The notes beneath the pieces were generated by a model. That model saw only the letters and a program-made list of their open reading frames with translations, was not told where the DNA came from and did no database searches. A program made the translations under genes and the position numbers. Positions 7,450 through 55,189 of a DNA stretch of 64,000 nt are shown here, piece by piece. Every line of letters starts with the position of its first letter. Positions within the stretch are counted from its first letter, which is position 1. The stretch comes from an uncultured virus (IMG/VR IMGVR_UViG_3300042544_003642) (lineage: Duplodnaviria > Heunggongvirae > Uroviricota > Caudoviricetes), in IMG/VR virus record IMGVR_UViG_3300042544_003642. One strand, written 5' to 3'.

Positions 7450-8859
7450 ATGTTCAATTACGATAGCGTCATTCTTGACGTCGACAGCTACAAATTCAGC
7501 CATCCGTGGCAACTTCCCCCAAACACCACACACATTCACAGCTACGTAGAAAGTCGCGGCGGACGCTTCCCTCGCACACTGTTTTACGGGCTCCAAATGT
7601 GGCTCAAGCGTCGGCTGGTGACTCCAGTGACCATGAGCGACGTGGACGAGGCTGCTGGATTGGCAGCCGCACACATGGTGCCTTTCCATCGGGAAGGCTG
7701 GGAATACATTGTGCGTGAGCACCAGGGCCGGTTGCCAGTAGAGATTCGAGCAGTGCCCGAAGGCATGGTGATCCCCACTCACAACGTGCTAGCCACTGTG
7801 GTGAACACCGATCCCAATGTGCCCTGGCTCACTAGCTTCCTAGAGACAGCTCTACTCCGTGCTGTTTGGTACCCCACCACAGTGGCCACACTCAGCTGGC
7901 ATGCCAAGCAGACCATTCGAGCTGCACTGGGGAAGAGCAGCGACAACCCCGAAGGCGAGCTTCTGTTTCGACTGCACGACTTTGGCGCTCGTGGCGTCAG
8001 CAGCGATGAAAGCGCTCAGCTGGGTGGCAGTGCTCACCTAGTGAACTTCCGAGGCACCGACACTGTTGCAGCCCTCCTTGCAGCCCGACGCTACTACACC
8101 GAGGCCATGGCAGGGTTTAGCATTCCGGCAGCAGAGCACAGCACCATCACCAGTTGGGGTCGCGATGGCGAAGCTGAGGCCTATGGCAACATGCTCAAGC
8201 AGTTTGCCCGGCCAGGCAGCATCCTTGCAGTGGTGAGCGACAGCTACGACATCATGAACGCGGTCAACCACATCTGGGGCGAAACACTGCGAGACCGTGT
8301 GCTAGACAGTGGGGCCACCCTTGTGATTCGTCCCGACAGCGGTGATCCAGTTGTGGTGCCAGTTGATGTGGTTGAGGCACTTGGTGAGCGGTTTGGCTAC
8401 ACCGTCAACAGCAAGGGCTACAAGGTGCTGAACAAGAGTGTGCGTGTGATCCAGGGCGATGGCATGAACATTGACAGCATCAAAACCCTGTATGACAACC
8501 TCACAGCACGCGGCTGGAGTGCAGAAAACGTGGCTGTGGGCATGGGCGGCCAACTCTTGCAAGGTATTACTCGCGACACCAATCGATTTGCGATGAAAGC
8601 TTCAGCTGCCTGTATTGATGGGGAATGGCGCGAGGTATATAAGGATCCTATTACAGACAAAGGAAAAACATCCAAGAAAGGTAAAGTTACCCTTTGGCAG
8701 TCAGGTAACCAATTTCAAACAAGCGTTAACACTCCTCTACGCGGTCTTGAGAATGGTGTGGTGTGGACCGACGTTCTGCAGACAGTCTACCGGAATGGAC
8801 GCCTTCTCATTGATCAATCATTCCAGGACATTAGAGATCGATCTGAGAAAGTCTTTTAA
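7450..8859 (+). CDS. nadV: nicotinamide phosphoribosyltransferase (NAMPT)
   Basis: DSYKFSH, LHDFGARG, SIPAAEHS, VVSDSYD, IRPDSGDP. Confidence 0.95.
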   Translation: MFNYDSVILDVDSYKFSHPWQLPPNTTHIHSYVESRGGRFPRTLFYGLQMWLKRRLVTPVTMSDVDEAAGLAAAHMVPFHREGWEYIVREHQGRLPVEIRAVPEGMVIPTHNVLATVVNTDPNVPWLTSFLETALLRAVWYPTTVATLSWHAKQTIRAALGKSSDNPEGELLFRLHDFGARGVSSDESAQLGGSAHLVNFRGTDTVAALLAARRYYTEAMAGFSIPAAEHSTITSWGRDGEAEAYGNMLKQFARPGSILAVVSDSYDIMNAVNHIWGETLRDRVLDSGATLVIRPDSGDPVVVPVDVVEALGERFGYTVNSKGYKVLNKSVRVIQGDGMNIDSIKTLYDNLTARGWSAENVAVGMGGQLLQGITRDTNRFAMKASAACIDGEWREVYKDPITDKGKTSKKGKVTLWQSGNQFQTSVNTPLRGLENGVVWTDVLQTVYRNGRLLIDQSFQDIRDRSEKVF

Positions 8860-10350: not shown

Positions 10351-10878
10351 ATGAGCGATTTAAAAACACTTACTTGGGCAAATCACAAGCTTGCCGAAAG
10401 TACTCCTTTGATGGCTGCTATGCTTTCTGGAGATATAACACCTGAATGCTACTCTGATCTAGTGTACAGCAAACACTTGTTGTATTCTGTTATTGAAAGC
10501 AGACTTGCTTTTGAGTGTGCTGACTTGCCTCGAGCAGGCTGTGCGTTCCAGGACTGGAAAGAGATGGGGTCCCACAGTCCCACTTTACCTGCCAGTTTTT
10601 TTGAATTTCACGAGAGACTGGAAACTGTGTCTGAAAGCCAATTGTGGGCGCATGTGTATGTGCACTACCTTGCCCCGCTCTATGGTGGTCAAATCTTGAA
10701 GAAGATTTTGAGCCCTCGTTTTCCGGTAAACATGCTGAGTTTTGAAACACCCAAAGCAGCTATTGCTGAGATTCGCTACAAAACACATGCTGGTTTGGCT
10801 GAAGAGGCCAATCTCAGCTTTGAGATGACAACAAGGTACTATGACGAACTTCATCAATCTCATCAACCAAACGGCTGA
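10351..10878 (+). CDS. heme oxygenase
   Basis: LKTLTWANHKLAE, AHVYVHYLAPLYGGQIL. Confidence 0.85.
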   Translation: MSDLKTLTWANHKLAESTPLMAAMLSGDITPECYSDLVYSKHLLYSVIESRLAFECADLPRAGCAFQDWKEMGSHSPTLPASFFEFHERLETVSESQLWAHVYVHYLAPLYGGQILKKILSPRFPVNMLSFETPKAAIAEIRYKTHAGLAEEANLSFEMTTRYYDELHQSHQPNG

Positions 10879-11467
10879 TAAATTTGAGCAGCTGATCCAA
10901 AACAACACCACTCTCTTGACGGAGATACCAACAGAGGATTTTGGTTGGACCAATAACCGATGGTATAGCCAACAGTTTCGGCTTGCTCATGTGGAAAGAT
11001 TTCAGCAACCAAAATTCAGTGTGTTGCACACTGTGATCTTTCCTCACCTGACTGATCCCAGCCCTATTTTTGGGTTTGATATCATTGCCAGTGACACCAA
11101 GGCCACAGGTTTGTTTTTTGATTTCAGTCCCACTGTTGAAAGTTATGGAATCATATCTAGTCATCTATGGAGTGAGCCACGTGAAAGACCTGAATGGGGA
11201 ACAATTTTCAGCGAGCATTGGATCGCTTGCAGACCCACATATACGGAAGCTGAAACCATCAGCACATTGGCATGCACACTGTTGGAACAATATCTATCTC
11301 AGTTGGGAACAAAAACCACAACAGATGTACCTATGGTCATAAAGAAGCAAAATCAATACAGTTTGAACCAAAGACAAAACACTCATACTACTAGAGTTCT
11401 CATGAAGATACTGGGAGAAGAGCGTGGCCAGTATTTTGTGGAAAATATTTTATTCCCAACCATATGA
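10841..11467 (+). CDS. ferredoxin-dependent bilin reductase (PcyA/PcyX family)
   Basis: LHTVIFP...PIFGFD...DFSP, RPEWGTIFS, QRQNTHT, LFP; adjacent to heme oxygenase. Confidence 0.85.
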   Translation: MTNFINLINQTADKFEQLIQNNTTLLTEIPTEDFGWTNNRWYSQQFRLAHVERFQQPKFSVLHTVIFPHLTDPSPIFGFDIIASDTKATGLFFDFSPTVESYGIISSHLWSEPRERPEWGTIFSEHWIACRPTYTEAETISTLACTLLEQYLSQLGTKTTTDVPMVIKKQNQYSLNQRQNTHTTRVLMKILGEERGQYFVENILFPTI

Positions 11468-25366: not shown

Positions 25367-25475
25367 TTGCCATCGAGGTTGGAACAGCCTCCCAACACAC
25401 CATGAGAATGGTAACTAGCCGGCAGCAATCACCTAGCTGGTGAAGAAATCCGGAAGTGGCATCCGGCGATGGCGA
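25367..25475 (+). ncRNA. tRNA-like RNA lacking a 7-nt anticodon loop
   Basis: gccatcg/cgatggc acceptor, ccgga-7-tccgg T-arm, accat-GAGA-atggt. Confidence 0.45.
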
Positions 25476-29401: not shown

Positions 29402-29564
29402 GCCGGATTAGCTCATTTGGTAGAGCAATTGATTTTTCCGTGGCGGGATAATGCCACCAACTGGTGAATAAATTTACCAGTTGTTTGTGGGCAACACTGG
29501 CCTAAAGCCAGTACGCCAAATGGTAATCAATAGGTGGTCAGTTCGAAACTGACATCCGGCACCA
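29402..29564 (+). tRNA. tRNA-Thr (GGT, or TGT depending on junction) with 87-nt anticodon-loop insert
   Basis: Canonical 76-nt cloverleaf after removing 29435-29521. Confidence 0.85.
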
Positions 29565-30525: not shown

Positions 30526-30599
30526 GCAGGTATGGTGTAATAGGAACTCAGTGCGTTGCCAACGCACAGTCGCCGGAGCGTTACCGGCTACCTGCTCCA
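30526..30599 (+). tRNA. tRNA-Gly(GCC)
   Basis: gtgcg-ttGCCaa-cgcac; U73; CCA. Confidence 0.85.
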
Positions 30600-31740: not shown

Positions 31741-31814
31741 CGTCCTGTAGCTCAACTGAATAGAGCATTTGAATCCTAGTCAAAAGGTTGCGAGTTTGAA
31801 TCTCGCCAGGACGT
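31741..31814 (+). tRNA. tRNA-Arg(CCT)
   Basis: tttga-atCCTag-tcaaa; no encoded CCA. Confidence 0.75.
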
Positions 31815-39330: not shown

Positions 39331-39352
39331 ACTTTTAAGACTTGTACCATGT

Positions 39353-39426
39353 GGCCCTGTATCCCAATTGGCAGAGGAGACAGACTTAAAATCTGTTAGT
39401 TGAGGGTTCGAATCCCTCTGGGGCCA
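39353..39426 (+). tRNA. tRNA-Leu(TAA) with short variable loop
   Basis: acaga-ctTAAaa-tctgt. Confidence 0.85.
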
Positions 39427-39525
39427 TATTCCCTTATAGGATAGGTTCTCCGGTTCGGAGATTATATTTTTCAATTATTTTCCCTGTTATTGTGTATGTC
39501 TTGGAACACCAGCTATAATTCCTAT

Positions 39526-40250: not shown

Positions 40251-40336
40251 GCGGCGTTAGCTCAGGGGTTAGAGCACAAGTCTTCCAAACTTGAGGCGAA
40301 TAGGTTCCATCGGTTCGAATCCGATACGCCGCTCCA
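40251..40336 (+). tRNA. tRNA-Gly(TCC) with enlarged variable region
   Basis: caagt-ctTCCaa-acttg; 15-nt variable region; TCCA end. Confidence 0.85.
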
Positions 40337-40466
40337 TTTAAACTTACTAACAGTTTTTGAGACGCATACTATCGTGTTTGTTTTTGATTGTGTTAAACTT
40401 AAAATTACTACAAACATTCGTAGTTGACGTTGCAGAAAAGATCAATATAGTAAAACTACAAGTTAA

Positions 40467-40590
40467 GGATCCGTGGTCTAATTGGATAAGGCAAGAGCCT
40501 TCCGGTCCCGCAGGTAGCATTCAAGGTTCGAATCCTTGGGGACCGCTCCTAAGCTCTTCGATGGGGGTTCGAATCCCTCCGGGTCCGCCA
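40467..40590 (+). tRNA. tRNA-Arg(CCT) with 47-nt anticodon-loop insert
   Basis: Canonical 77-nt cloverleaf after removing 40501-40547. Confidence 0.85.
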
Positions 40591-44268: not shown

Positions 44269-45069
44269 ATGCATTGGATTATTCAGGACAACCTGCTCAA
44301 TGAGCGCAACTATAGCAGCCTTCTGGAAGCTCTAGTTCGTCTTCAAATCCCTCATGACATTGTCAAGGTGATTCCGTTCACAAGTGGGTTGCCATGGGAA
44401 GAGCGAATTACTCCCCTGGTAGACCCTCAAGGACACGTGATGGTGAGTGGGAGCATCAGCCTGGCTACACTGGCTACTGATCGTGGTTGGACCCCAGGCA
44501 GCTTTCACAATGAGAACCATGACTTTCAAGTGTGGCGTGAACACATGAAAGGTCATCTCCTCAATGAGGAGGCAGTGGTGTGCAAGTTTGGTGATGTGCC
44601 CCATTTGTGGGATCGCTTTTTTATCCGACCCACAGAAGACACCAAGAGCTTCAACGGGCAGATAATAGACTGGCAGGCGTTCCTATCTTGGCAACGTAAG
44701 GTGATTGGATTGCGTGAGACCTATACTACTCTTGATGAGAACACTCCAGTTGTGGTGAGTGAACTCAAACAGATATATCGGGAGGCCCGATTTTTTGTAG
44801 TAGATGGAGAAGTCATCACAGGCAGCACCTACAAGATTGGAAGCCGCGTTTGTCCAACAGCAGAAGTGCCACCCACAATGTGGGAATATGCTCAACGCAT
44901 GGCTGGAAAGTGGGGACCAGCTCGAGCCTATGTGATTGACCTGGCTCTTACTGACGATGCTGATGATGGATACAACAAGATTATTGAATACAACTGCTGC
45001 AATTGTGCAGGGTTTTATGAGATTGATGTGCAGAAATGGATTATGGCCATTGAAAACATGGAGTTTTAG
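44269..45069 (+). CDS. ATP-grasp domain protein (DUF4343-like)
   Basis: FIRPTEDTKSFNG, EARFFVV, VIDLA, IIEYN. Confidence 0.75.
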   Translation: MHWIIQDNLLNERNYSSLLEALVRLQIPHDIVKVIPFTSGLPWEERITPLVDPQGHVMVSGSISLATLATDRGWTPGSFHNENHDFQVWREHMKGHLLNEEAVVCKFGDVPHLWDRFFIRPTEDTKSFNGQIIDWQAFLSWQRKVIGLRETYTTLDENTPVVVSELKQIYREARFFVVDGEVITGSTYKIGSRVCPTAEVPPTMWEYAQRMAGKWGPARAYVIDLALTDDADDGYNKIIEYNCCNCAGFYEIDVQKWIMAIENMEF

Positions 45070-45678
45070 GTGTTCAAGTTGCTGGCCAAGTTGCCTCGAG
45101 AACTGGGGGTAGCGTGTAGCGGTGGTGTAGACAGCATGGCGGTGCTGGATTTTTTGCGCCTCCGGCACAACGTCACTGTGTGTTTTTTTCATCATGACAC
45201 CGAAACAAGTTCAAAAGCGTTGAGCTTTCTCAGCACATACTGTTATGAGAACTCCATTCCCATGCGAGTGGATTTTTTGGTTGATGCGTGCCCCAAAGGG
45301 GTTTCAATGGAAGAACATTGGCGCAACAGTCGATATGAGTTTTTGCACAGCATCGAAGGAGTTGTGGTAACAGGGCATCATCTAGATGATTGTGTGGAGA
45401 CCTATCTCTTCAACTGTTTGCATGGGAAAACACACACCATTCCCATGTGGCGGAACAATGTGGTGCGACCCTTTCTCACCACACCCAAGAGTGTGTTTGA
45501 AAGTTGGTGTGTGAGACATGAGGTGCCTTGGGTTGAGGATGAGAGCAATAAAGATTTGAAGTATATGCGGAATCACATTCGTCATAAGATTGTACCGGAG
45601 GCACTCAAGGTCAATCCAGGCTTGAGGAAGGTGGTCAAGCGGCTGGTTCTTCAAAGCATGCAAACAGAAAATAGTTGA
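45070..45678 (+). CDS. tilS: tRNA(Ile)-lysidine synthetase (minimal PP-loop)
   Basis: SGGVDS, TGHHLDD, RP, DESN...RNHIRH. Confidence 0.88.
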   Translation: MFKLLAKLPRELGVACSGGVDSMAVLDFLRLRHNVTVCFFHHDTETSSKALSFLSTYCYENSIPMRVDFLVDACPKGVSMEEHWRNSRYEFLHSIEGVVVTGHHLDDCVETYLFNCLHGKTHTIPMWRNNVVRPFLTTPKSVFESWCVRHEVPWVEDESNKDLKYMRNHIRHKIVPEALKVNPGLRKVVKRLVLQSMQTENS

Positions 45679-47534: not shown

Positions 47535-47608
47535 GGCCCCATAAGACAAAGGTAGTCAGCTGGACTCTAAATCCAGTGGTGTGAGTTCAAATCTCACTGG
47601 TGCCACCA
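47535..47608 (+). tRNA. amber suppressor tRNA (CTA anticodon)
   Basis: gctgga-ctCTAaa-tccagt; TTCAAAT T-loop; CCA; own promoter upstream. Confidence 0.85.
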
Positions 47609-54697: not shown

Positions 54698-55189
54698 ATG
54701 ACCAAGATAGTGTTTTTAGACTTTGACGGCGTGTTATTACCTGATCCTGATGCTAGAGAGCAAGCAGAGCAGGGACTGACTACCAATAACTATCTCTCTA
54801 AAGTTGTATTCAATCCCAGTTGTGTGAAAAATTTGAATGCCTTGCTCAAGGCAACTCATGCTGAAATAGTTCTCAGCACAAGTTGGGCTGAGGGACACAG
54901 TGTTAGTGAAGTCAGCAATTGTCTCATGCGCAATGGTATTGATCCTTCCTGTATATTTGAATACGATGATCCCAGTGAAGGCAATTACATGACTCCTAGA
55001 CAGCAAGGGTCAAATCGGGGTCAAGAAGTTTTGAACTGGATTGCTGATCATCCTGAGATTGACACTTGGGTAGCAATAGATGACAACCCAGCCATCTTGT
55101 ATTTGAAAACCAATTATGTGAGAACACATCCTGATCATGGTTTTGACAAAGCCAGCTTAGCAAAAGCCTTGAGCATTTTGAACAAATAA
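54698..55189 (+). CDS. HAD-family phosphatase (Swiss-Army-knife RNA-repair-like)
   Basis: FLDFDGVL, IVLSTSW, RGQEV..W, AIDD. Confidence 0.78.
   Translation: MTKIVFLDFDGVLLPDPDAREQAEQGLTTNNYLSKVVFNPSCVKNLNALLKATHAEIVLSTSWAEGHSVSEVSNCLMRNGIDPSCIFEYDDPSEGNYMTPRQQGSNRGQEVLNWIADHPEIDTWVAIDDNPAILYLKTNYVRTHPDHGFDKASLAKALSILNK

What the first reader, a model, noticed from the sequence alone, without database searches (positions are those of the whole stretch)
40467..40590. tRNA-Arg(CCT) with a tRNA minihelix nested in its anticodon loop
Seen: a 47-nt insert (40501-40547) at the same position as in tRNA-Thr (after U33); both 5' junctions contain TTCCG. The insert is itself an acceptor-like stem cggtccc/gggaccg stacked on a perfect T-arm (caagg-TTCGAAT-ccttg). 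Removing it gives a canonical 77-nt tRNA. Established: RNase P and RNase Z recognise acceptor/T-arm minihelices. Inference: host tRNA-end-processing nucleases could excise the insert and an RNA ligase could join the halves, i.e. splicing by tRNA mimicry.
Basis: partly seen in the sequence, partly recalled or inferred. Interest (0 to 1): 0.8.

Follow-up and report, generated by a model that had tools for sequence, protein, structure and literature searches.

The report
Mini-tRNA intron inside phage tRNA-Arg
A giant lake-water phage has an arginine tRNA gene split in its anticodon loop by a 47-base insert shaped like the top half of a tRNA; such inserts recur in a few giant phages and nobody yet knows how they are cut out.

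Summary
40467-40590 is a full-length tRNA (Rfam 43.8 bits) interrupted in the anticodon loop by 47 nt. The insert folds as a 7-bp closing stem stacked on a 5-bp T-arm with a TTCGAAT loop (3 of 200,000 shuffles do as well). It is no assembly artefact: the window is identical to a second 309-kb assembly, the stretch is held by 20 lake-water DNA runs, and a homologous insert sits in the tRNA-Arg of a 75%-related phage.

It belongs to a recurring class. Four more anticodon-loop inserts with a closing stem plus T-arm occur in that relative and, unannotated, in the cultured Agrobacterium phage Atu_ph07.

Across the six cases only a junction between nt 35 and 36 gives sensible, non-redundant anticodons. 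The gene is therefore probably tRNA-Arg(UCU), not CCU, and the intron is 40503-40549. That is a mini-tRNA from its first paired base to 4 nt past its stem. The 5' cut then falls on the RNase P site; the 3' cut is not RNase Z's canonical site.

The phage encodes Rnl1-like and Rnl2-like ligases and a kinase-phosphoesterase, but such genes are common in jumbo phages. No RNA data exist. Lak megaphage 'enigmatic' introns (2019) are the precedent, and this scan noted them before (e1-5959538).

The parts
40424..40451 (+). sigma-70-like promoter TTGACG-16 nt-TATAGT, 15 nt upstream of the tRNA
   Evidence: 10 of 12 consensus positions. The L007-type relatives carry TTGACG-16-TATAAT at the same place (by eye).
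40467..40590 (+). Interrupted tRNA-Arg gene with encoded CCA (40588-40590)
   Evidence: Rfam RF00005 43.8 bits, full model; ARAGORN -i. The discriminator is G and A20 is present in the D-loop, which I recall as Arg identity elements.
40467..40502 (+). 5' exon under the favoured 35/36 junction (nt 1-35; loop part CTTC = 40499-40502).
40503..40549 (+). 47-nt intron under the favoured junction (40502-40548 gives the same product): a mini-tRNA from its first paired base to 4 nt past its stem
   Evidence: Family rule from six inserts
40503..40509 (+). Closing (acceptor-like) stem, 5' strand CGGTCCC
   Evidence: identical in L007
40510..40521 (+). 12-nt linker replacing the D and anticodon arms; contains D-loop-like GGTAG (40513-40517)
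   Evidence: AGGTA is shared by window, L007 and the Atu_ph07 Asn insert; the elbow-mimic reading is inference
40522..40538 (+). T-arm CAAGG / TTCGAAT / CCTTG
40539..40545 (+). Closing stem, 3' strand GGGACCG, directly stacked on the T-stem
40546..40549 (+). 4-nt single-stranded tail CTCC of the intron, at the positions equivalent to tRNA 73-76
   Evidence: inference from the family rule
40550..40590 (+). 3' exon under the favoured junction (starts TAA, then anticodon-stem strand GCTCT 40553-40557)
31741..31814 (+). Second, uninterrupted tRNA-Arg(CCT). It makes a CCT reading of the interrupted gene redundant.

Best explanation
The insert is a genuine, protein-dependent tRNA intron that does not splice itself. 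It belongs to a small class found in jumbo phages with T4-like portals. Each member is a miniature tRNA (acceptor-like stem, D-loop remnant, T-arm) sitting in the anticodon loop behind a uniform 4x7 or 5x8 internal loop.

It is most likely removed between nt 35 and 36. The excised piece then runs from the first base of its acceptor-like stem to 4 nt past that stem, which is the end geometry of a mature tRNA. The product would be tRNA-Arg(UCU), which complements the phage's intact tRNA-Arg(CCU).

Inferred steps, none shown:
- The host's RNase P cuts at 40502/40503, leaving a 3'-OH on the 5' exon.
- A second nuclease cuts at 40549/40550. Its identity is unknown.
- The phage's Rnl1-like ligase seals the anticodon loop, after the kinase-phosphoesterase if the ends need healing.
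For: The gene is real and stable.
- The window is identical to the 309-kb assembly G001 over 63,658 of 63,658 compared bases.
- 20 lake-water DNA runs from 20 studies hold the stretch; 15 are flagged as possible sources.
- No intron-less DNA joint appears in the 4 runs laid.

A homologous insert occurs in a diverged lineage: L007 plus two metagenome contigs.
- The exons match at 42 of 77 positions, the insert at 39 of 48 columns.
- All 21 exon stem pairs are kept in both genes. 12 of them changed on both sides.
- All 12 insert pairs are unchanged.

The structure covaries. Against the Atu_ph07 Asn insert, 8 of 11 comparable minihelix pairs changed on both sides and still pair.

The junction rule rests. 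Of k=2 to 5, only k=4 gives acceptable anticodons in 6 of 6 cases.
- L007's UAA tRNA matches the window's intron-less orthologue.
- The Atu_ph07 gene that ARAGORN calls Tyr has a class I body, and its exons best match annotated tRNA-Asn.
- The 5' exon of the Atu_ph07 Lys gene matches phage Phosso's tRNA-Lys through position 36.
- The 28 intact Atu_ph07 tRNAs include no Asn, no Thr and no Lys-UUU. They do include class II Tyr-GUA and Ser-UGA.
- In this phage AGA (913) outnumbers AGG (504) among 94,758 codons.

Candidate enzymes lie in the same phage.
- Rnl1 with T4_Rnl1_C and an Rnl2-like ligase.
- An AAA_33 kinase fused to Metallophos, RlaP, HAD_SAK_2 and a Thg1-like protein.

A promoter-like site lies upstream.
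Against: No RNA evidence of any kind exists: no spliced junction, no excised intron, no expression.

The rule rests on six inserts from three phage lineages, and the two Arg cases cannot test it, because CCU and UCU are both Arg. Exon similarity to Arg-UCU or Arg-CCU references is indecisive (44-55 identities in 78-83 aligned columns).

In 4 of 6 cases the closing stem has only 4-6 pairs. The 5' cut is flush with the stem only if an unpaired C.A, A.A or G.A apposition is counted as the end pair. For the Atu_ph07 Lys insert an alternative closing stem that uses exon bases scores as well.

I know of no bacterial endonuclease that cuts 4 nt past an acceptor stem (recall).

RNA ligases are general anti-defence equipment of jumbo phages (PMC7824862, passages). 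Rnl1 is present in 4 of 5 related isolates, and only 2 of those 4 have tRNA matches over 100 nt.

The Lak introns appear to use another junction.
Confidence: 0.45

Rival explanations
1. One reading: the intron lies after U33 (40501-40547), the product is tRNA-Arg(CCU), and canonical RNase P and RNase Z cuts are followed by ligation.
For: Removal gives a canonical 7-nt loop. In L007's Arg gene the 33/34 placement is the only one that yields CCU. Both cuts would lie 2 nt outside the stem, a symmetric geometry. Ligases are present.
Against: Canonical P and Z sites give a 10-nt loop. The same junction (k=2) gives AGA for L007's UAA tRNA and AGU for both Atu_ph07 genes. That contradicts the orthologue, the class I bodies and the exon matches. 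The phage already has an intact Arg-CCU at 31741.
Confidence: 0.12
2. Ruler-type splicing. An anticodon-loop endonuclease of phage or host measures from the anticodon stem and cuts 4 nt after its 5' strand and 3 nt before its 3' strand. It leaves 2',3'-cyclic phosphate and 5'-OH ends, which the phage kinase-phosphoesterase heals and Rnl1 seals. The minihelix only holds the ends together, or is a selfish passenger.
For: The junction is constant relative to the anticodon stem in 6 of 6 cases. The phage has a complete heal-and-seal set. I recall that T4 Pnkp and Rnl1 can replace yeast tRNA ligase in tRNA splicing.
Against: No candidate endonuclease was found. No EndA or RtcB family appeared among the 351 of 364 ORFs scanned at E thresholds of 1e-3 to 1e-6. 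The model does not explain why the closing stem always starts at the cut (offsets 0/4 or 1/5), nor why a T-arm and a GG linker are kept.
Confidence: 0.2
3. The insert is not spliced. The RNA is a disabled tRNA gene or a decoy, or the useful product is the released minihelix, for example bait for host enzymes that recognise the tRNA elbow or acceptor end.
For: No RNA evidence for splicing exists. An intact Arg-CCU makes this gene dispensable if it is CCU. This scan has noted other phage tRNA look-alikes without a usable anticodon (e1-5857470, unchecked).
Against: Both Arg genes keep perfect cloverleaves, an encoded CCA and a promoter-like site despite 45% exon divergence. In Atu_ph07 the interrupted genes would be the phage's only Asn, Thr and Lys-UUU tRNAs.
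Confidence: 0.12
4. The insert is a self-cleaving or self-splicing ribozyme.
For: Bacterial and phage tRNA anticodon-loop introns known so far are group I (recall; scan notes e1-5778944 and e1-5829724).
Against: 47 nt is far below any group I core. No Rfam intron or ribozyme family matches the insert, even at E up to 10.
Confidence: 0.03
5. The insert is an assembly chimera or a one-off recombination scar.
For: The T-arm 11-mer GGTTCGAATCC occurs twice in the gene. That could mislead an assembler.
Against: An identical sequence stands in an independent 309-kb assembly, in 3 further IMG/VR contigs and in contigs of 4 other runs. A homologous insert occurs in a diverged lineage.
Confidence: 0.01

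Closest known systems
'Enigmatic' tRNA introns of Lak megaphages (Devoto et al. 2019, PMC6784885; I read the passages on introns and supplementary Table S6)
   Same: Short, ORF-less inserts in the anticodon loops of giant-phage tRNAs, with no Rfam match. Their 3' part is a nested mini-tRNA (7-8-bp acceptor-like stem plus T-arm). One was said to 'itself encode a tRNA'. They vary in presence between close relatives.
   Different: Lak inserts are 79-141 nt. They start with a small hairpin and an A-rich spacer, so the 5' splice site lies about 30 nt from the mini-tRNA. Only 2-3 nt separate the mini-tRNA stem from the predicted 3' intron end. The junction is near 36/37-37/38. Their phages have about 26% GC and infect Prevotella in the gut. 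Here the intron is nothing but the minihelix, with a 4-nt tail and a 35/36 junction, in a lake phage with 38-52% G+C in 2-kb windows related to PA5oct and Atu_ph07.
Group I introns in bacterial tRNA anticodon loops (tRNA-Leu UAA of cyanobacteria, tRNA-Arg CCU of Agrobacterium, tRNA-Ile of Azoarcus; recalled)
   Same: Anticodon-loop position in bacterial-type tRNA genes, including an Arg tRNA.
   Different: They are self-splicing RNAs of roughly 200 nt or more with a P1-P9 core. This insert is 47 nt and has no Rfam hit.
Archaeal and eukaryal tRNA introns cut by EndA/Sen and joined by RtcB or Trl1
   Same: Short, protein-spliced anticodon-loop introns. Trl1's sealing domain is related to T4 Rnl1 (recalled).
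   Different: Those need a bulge-helix-bulge motif or a ruler at 37/38. Here there is a 4x7 internal loop with no 4-bp central helix. No EndA or RtcB gene was found in the phage.
mascRNA/MALAT1-type tRNA-like elements released by RNase P and RNase Z (Rfam RF01684)
   Same: An acceptor/T-arm tRNA-like module embedded in a longer RNA. It is the insert's best, though sub-threshold, Rfam match.
   Different: These are eukaryotic and do not lie inside a tRNA, and their flanks are not re-joined. The score is 18 bits against a gathering score of 42.5.
T4 anticodon-loop break repair (host PrrC nuclease, phage Pnkp and Rnl1; recalled, and PMC7824862 passages for jumbo phages)
   Same: Sealing of a broken tRNA anticodon loop by an Rnl1-type ligase with a tRNA-specific C-terminal domain. 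This phage has the homologues.
   Different: That pathway repairs damage at 33/34. It does not remove an encoded insert.

Membership tests
tRNA (Rfam RF00005) | Full-length cloverleaf match at or above the gathering score | tested here: met
   43.8 bits against 29, model positions 1-71
tRNA (Rfam RF00005) | 7-nt anticodon loop with U33 and a purine at 37 once the insert is removed | tested here: met
   Met for both candidate junctions, CU|CCUAA and CUUC|UAA
Group I intron | Catalytic core (P3-P9) detectable by Rfam, with a length of about 200 nt or more | tested here: not met
   The insert is 47 nt. No intron family appears.
BHB intron (EndA/Sen substrates) | Two 3-nt bulges separated by a 4-bp helix at the splice sites | tested here: not met
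   The local fold gives a 4x7 internal loop between the anticodon stem and a 7-bp stem
BHB intron (EndA/Sen substrates) | Splicing endonuclease and RtcB-type ligase available | tested here: inconclusive
   Neither family was found in the 351 of 364 phage ORFs scanned. The host is unknown.
Lak-type mini-tRNA introns | Anticodon-loop insert whose 3' part is an acceptor-like stem stacked on a T-arm | tested here: met
   compared with Table S6
Lak-type mini-tRNA introns | 5' small hairpin and A-rich spacer ahead of the mini-tRNA | tested here: not met
   The closing stem starts 0-2 nt after the 5' splice site
Minihelix class defined here (window, L007 x3, Atu_ph07 x2) | 4x7 or 5x8 internal loop; closing stem; T-arm with T[TG]CRANY loop next to the 3' strand of the closing stem; a sensible anticodon at junction 35/36 | tested here: met
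   6 of 6 cases. The class is my own grouping, not a curated family.
RNase P / RNase Z substrates (tRNA-like elements) | 12-bp acceptor/T-stem stack with a T-loop | tested here: met
   7 + 5 bp and a TTCGAAT loop
RNase P / RNase Z substrates (tRNA-like elements) | Actual cleavage at the predicted bonds | not testable with these tools
   No RNA run holds the stretch
T4-type heal-and-seal tRNA repair | Rnl1 ligase with a tRNA-specific C-terminal domain, plus a polynucleotide kinase/phosphoesterase, in the same phage | tested here: met
   PF09511 with PF20819; AAA_33 with Metallophos in one 410-aa ORF. These lie in G001, which is identical to the window over 63,658 bases.

The most novel reading that the evidence does not exclude
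This would be a third route of tRNA splicing, native to bacteria and their phages. The intron is itself a miniature tRNA. The cell's own tRNA end-maturation machinery (RNase P at its 5' end, a 3'-end nuclease at its position 76) releases it as if it were a tRNA in a polycistronic precursor. The phage's anticodon-loop ligase Rnl1 then joins the two halves of the host tRNA.

Such introns could have begun as RNA-repair scars: a small tRNA-like RNA with mature ends ligated by mistake into an anticodon loop broken by a host nuclease, and then copied back into DNA.
Probability: 0.2. Interest if true: 0.9.

Novelty: new variant of a known kind. Interest (0 to 1): 0.7.

Why it matters
Bacteria and phages are thought to remove tRNA introns only by self-splicing. 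Protein-dependent tRNA splicing is regarded as an archaeal and eukaryal trait.

Short, structured inserts without a ribozyme, in functional-looking phage tRNA genes, imply an undescribed excision route. The minimal 47-nt form, with its fixed geometry, turns the 'enigmatic' Lak observation into exact, testable cut sites.

Three unannotated examples in a cultured phage (Atu_ph07) make the question answerable at the bench.

There is also a practical point. tRNA finders run with bacterial settings miss these genes or name the wrong anticodon, so phage tRNA repertoires and codon-usage arguments built on them are incomplete.

Tried and rejected
RNA evidence: no RNA holder is listed for window:40200-41400. 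The four DNA runs laid are contigs only and show no joint.

More relatives:
- Four IMG/VR scans returned the same four contigs each time: Sir2 neighbour, minihelix pattern, 37-nt tRNA-Gln anchor and methyltransferase alignment.
- The single metagenome scan gave only two L007-type contigs.
- No species-representative cellular genome holds the T-arm plus 3'-stem pattern. The minihelix is therefore not a copy of a known cellular tRNA end, at exact match.
- The phage collection has no match to the Arg gene; 16 records match only the neighbouring tRNA-Gly.

Whole-gene folding is uninformative. The MFE z-score is -0.66, and 46 of 200 shuffles fold as well, because the two T-arms can pair with each other. 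The local fold recovers the minihelix.

TTCCG as a shared splice signal: rejected, as it is absent from the other four inserts.

'Same position as tRNA-Thr': not supported.

Exon similarity to Arg-UCU or Arg-CCU references is indecisive.

Other long tRNA matches were set aside.
- Two from Vibrio phage 2.275.O do not fit the class by my reading.
- Five from Pectobacterium phage CBB and two from Serratia phage BF carry a different conserved insert, a hairpin followed by ACAGCAAC. I left them out of the rule.
- The third Atu_ph07 insert (33 nt, plain hairpin) also gives a sensible anticodon at 35/36 (Thr-UGU). It lacks a T-arm, so it is not counted among the six.

Literature: five searches found no paper on how such inserts are removed. 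Only Devoto 2019 describes them. bioRxiv supplements could not be seen.

Scan notes by place and by sequence gave nothing on this genome.

Full report
**What the window is**

The window is part of a 119-kb IMG/VR virus record that is about 34% complete. From base 343 on it is identical, with 0 mismatches in 63,658 bases, to the start of a 309-kb contig from another sample, G001. I therefore treat G001 as the same phage.

It is a jumbo phage from lake water. Its T4-like portal is 48-50% identical to those of Pseudomonas phage PA5oct and its relatives and of Agrobacterium phage Atu_ph07. It carries about 22 tRNA genes.

**The observation**

Rfam's tRNA model matches 40467-40587 end to end at 43.8 bits, against a gathering score of 29. 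ARAGORN finds the gene only when introns are allowed: a 77-nt tRNA with encoded CCA and a 47-nt insert in the anticodon loop.

The insert reads as follows:
- CGGTCCC (40503-09);
- a 12-nt linker (40510-21);
- CAAGG-TTCGAAT-CCTTG (40522-38);
- GGGACCG (40539-45).

This is a 7-bp stem stacked without a gap on a 5-bp T-arm. Of 200,000 shuffles of the insert, 47 contain a T-arm with a TTCRANY loop, and 3 also have a stacked stem of 6 bp or more.

Searched alone, the insert's best Rfam match is the mascRNA/menRNA tRNA-like family, at 18 bits and E = 0.057, far below the gathering score of 42.5. No intron or ribozyme family matches.

Folding the whole 124 nt is uninformative (z = -0.66), because the two T-arms can pair with each other.

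**It is not an artefact**

The same sequence is in G001 and in two further IMG/VR contigs. The stretch is held by 20 DNA runs from 20 studies, 15 of them flagged as possible sources. Contigs of four other runs cover it without any intron-less joint. One low-depth variant contig carries C40507T, which keeps a G.U pair, plus two linker changes.

**A second lineage**

A 35-kb contig (L007) has a Sir2 neighbour gene 75% identical to the window's. It carries a tRNA-Arg at the same place with a 48-nt insert. Two metagenome contigs carry the same gene.

The two Arg genes differ strongly in their exons, with 42 of 77 positions identical. All 21 exon stem pairs are kept in both, and 12 of them changed on both sides. 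The insert is far better conserved: 39 of 48 columns are identical and all 12 of its base pairs are unchanged.

Either the insert is under tighter sequence constraint than the tRNA, or it has moved between Arg genes. A GIY-YIG/NUMOD3 homing-endonuclease-like ORF lies 126 nt upstream of the L007 copy. Both genes have a sigma-70-like promoter directly upstream.

**A class, not a one-off**

L007 has two more interrupted tRNAs: Leu-CAA with a 62-nt insert and a UAA tRNA with a 51-nt insert. Their orthologues in the window are uninterrupted. The tRNA-Gln between them is 76 of 76 identical in the two phages.

I then ran the Rfam tRNA model over ten cultured relatives. tRNA matches longer than 100 nt turned up in Atu_ph07 (3), Vibrio phage 2.275.O (2), Pectobacterium phage CBB (5) and Serratia phage BF (2). 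None turned up in PA5oct, XaC1, Phosso, RsoM2USA, DSL-LC03 or fENko-Kae01.

The three Atu_ph07 genes have no annotated feature in the record as held. Two of them are of the same build as the window's insert.
- One has closing stem AGAGGC/GCCTCT, a linker containing AGGTA, and T-arm TTCAG-TTCGATT-CTGAA.
- The other has a 4-bp closing stem, a small middle hairpin and a T-like arm.

Against the window's minihelix, 8 of 11 comparable pairs of the first have changed on both sides and still pair. The linker motif AGGTA is shared by the window, L007 and Atu_ph07. It resembles the G18-G19 part of a D-loop, so the insert plausibly mimics the whole tRNA 'elbow'. That last step is inference.

The CBB and BF inserts share a different motif and are set aside.

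**Where the intron is cut**

In all six minihelix-type inserts the anticodon stem and the closing stem are separated by a 4x7 or 5x8 internal loop. In the 5x8 cases the extra bases face each other as C.A, C.A, A.A and G.A (the G.A case is my manual reading, because the script also found an alternative stem there).

I asked which split of the 7-nt loop gives a sensible tRNA, writing k for the number of bases kept on the 5' side.

It gives:
- CCU for both Arg genes and CAA for L007's Leu;
- AGA for L007's UAA tRNA, whose intron-less orthologue reads UAA;
- AGU for both Atu_ph07 genes.

k=4 gives UCU, UCU, CAA, UAA, GUU and UUU, and independent checks agree.
- The Atu_ph07 gene that ARAGORN calls Tyr-GUA has a class I body. 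Its exons best match annotated tRNA-Asn (5 records at the top of the listing, and no tRNA-Tyr among the 25 records listed).
- The 5' exon of the Lys gene matches phage Phosso's tRNA-Lys at 94% through position 36. Its 3' exon, however, matches tRNA-Thr T-arms.
- The plain-hairpin Atu_ph07 insert gives Thr-UGU at k=4. Its 5' exon matches mostly tRNA-Thr, and no tRNA-Ser appears among the records listed.
- Among the 31 Atu_ph07 tRNA genes found around the Rfam matches, the 28 intact ones include class II Tyr-GUA and Ser-UGA. They include no Asn, no Thr and no Lys-UUU.

By this rule the window's gene is tRNA-Arg(UCU). That fits the presence of an intact Arg-CCU at 31741-31814. It also fits AGA being used 1.8 times as often as AGG, 913 against 504 in 94,758 codons.

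The Arg genes cannot test the rule themselves, because both readings are Arg. Exon similarity to reference Arg tRNAs is indecisive.

**What the rule implies**

With k=4 the intron is 40503-40549. It starts at the first base of the acceptor-like stem and ends 4 nt after that stem. If the facing unpaired bases are counted as an end pair, the same holds for all six cases, with tails CTCC, TCCC, AAAG, AACA, ACAG and ACAG.

That is the end geometry of a mature tRNA: a flush 5' end and a 4-nt 3' tail. The 5' splice site therefore coincides with the bond that RNase P would cut in a minihelix substrate (established knowledge, recalled).

The 3' splice site does not coincide with the canonical RNase Z site after the discriminator. 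Canonical RNase P plus RNase Z cuts would leave a 10-nt loop. The nuclease for the 3' site is unknown.

**Enzymes in the phage**

I scanned 351 of 364 ORFs of 70 aa or more from G001 against Pfam. The 13 ORFs that cross the borders of the fetched pieces were not scanned. The thresholds were 1e-3, 1e-5 and 1e-6.

The scan found:
- an Rnl1-type ligase with the T4_Rnl1_C domain;
- an Rnl2-like ligase;
- a 410-aa AAA_33 kinase fused to a Metallophos phosphoesterase;
- RlaP, HAD_SAK_2, an R2K ATP-grasp protein, a Thg1-like protein and an RNase_T-type exonuclease.

No EndA and no RtcB was found.

These enzymes could heal and seal tRNA halves. They are, however, the usual anti-defence RNA-repair set of jumbo phages (PMC7824862, passages). 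Rnl1 occurs in 4 of 5 related isolates, of which only 2 have long tRNA matches. In Atu_ph07 an RNA-ligase-family gene lies about 1.1 kb downstream of the interrupted tRNA-Lys on the same strand. That is an anecdote, not a test.

**Comparison with what is known**

Devoto et al. 2019 reported 'enigmatic' introns in Lak megaphage tRNAs and noted that one may itself encode a tRNA (passages). Their Table S6 shows four insert types of 79-114 nt. Each has a small hairpin, an A-rich spacer and a mini-tRNA (7-8-bp stem plus T-arm), followed by 2-3 nt before the exon.

The present class shares the nested mini-tRNA. It lacks the 5' hairpin, has a 4-nt tail, and uses a different junction. This scan had already described the Lak type (note e1-5959538).

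Five literature searches found no account of how such inserts are removed.

Group I introns, BHB introns and small ribozymes are excluded by size, by the local fold and by Rfam.

**Verdict**

The structure is real, conserved and recurrent. Its status as a spliced intron rests on comparative evidence only. RNase P fits the 5' site once the junction is moved by two bases, which also changes the anticodon to UCU. RNase Z does not fit the 3' site. The ligation step has good candidates but no specific support.

Noticed in passing
window 29402-29564 (+): tRNA with an 87-nt anticodon-loop insert of another build: a closing stem TGGCG/CGCCA and two hairpins, with no T-arm. Its 5' exon matches tRNA-Thr of Cronobacter phage CR9. 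The anticodon is GGT or TGT depending on the junction; junction 35/36 would give TTT.
   Followed up: partly
Agrobacterium phage Atu_ph07, MF403008.1 68159-68280, 323905-324023, 335108-335213 (all minus strand; L049-L051): Three strong tRNA matches (54.7-57.2 bits) with 33-48-nt anticodon-loop inserts. None has an annotated feature in the record as held. They would be the phage's only Lys-UUU, Asn and Thr tRNAs.
   Followed up: yes
Pectobacterium phage CBB (L070-L074) and Serratia phage BF (L075, L076; also L012:8217-8333 and 8663-8789): A separate conserved family of roughly 50-nt inserts in tRNA-like genes: a GATTC...GAATC hairpin followed by ACAGCAAC (or ACGGCA). One is annotated 'tRNA-Pseudo' in BF.
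   Followed up: partly
window 25368-25474 (+): Rfam skipping-rope RNA match (44.5 bits, gathering 36.7) inside the tRNA cluster.
   Followed up: no
window 40251-40336 (+): tRNA-Gly(TCC) of 86 nt with a long extra arm. It is 83-85% identical to annotated tRNA-Gly of Serratia BF, Erwinia and Yersinia jumbo phages.
   Followed up: no
window 39352-39427 (+) and L007:3135-3262: A tRNA with anticodon TAA, a short variable loop (class I body) and discriminator A. This is unusual for a bacterial-type Leu tRNA.
   Followed up: partly
window 47535-47608 (+): Amber-suppressor-type tRNA (anticodon CTA). TAG ends 85 of 364 called ORFs in G001, so any TAG recoding is at most partial.
   Followed up: no
window 30526-30596 (+): tRNA-Gly(GCC) with an odd T-loop. 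Rfam finds it (46.2 bits) but ARAGORN does not.
   Followed up: partly
L007:4180-5040 (-): NUMOD3 (47.1 bits) plus a weak GIY-YIG match (20.5 bits): a homing-endonuclease-like ORF between tRNA-Gly and the interrupted tRNA-Arg. The window has no counterpart at that place.
   Followed up: partly
window about 44269-45675 and 54698-55186 (from G001 coordinates + 342): An R2K ATP-grasp gene, a PP-loop (TilS-like) gene and a HAD_SAK_2 'Swiss Army Knife RNA repair' gene lie close to the tRNA cluster.
   Followed up: no
window about 10351-11464 (from G001 coordinates + 342): Heme oxygenase and ferredoxin-dependent bilin reductase genes. These are cyanophage-type auxiliary genes, a hint at the host.
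   Followed up: no
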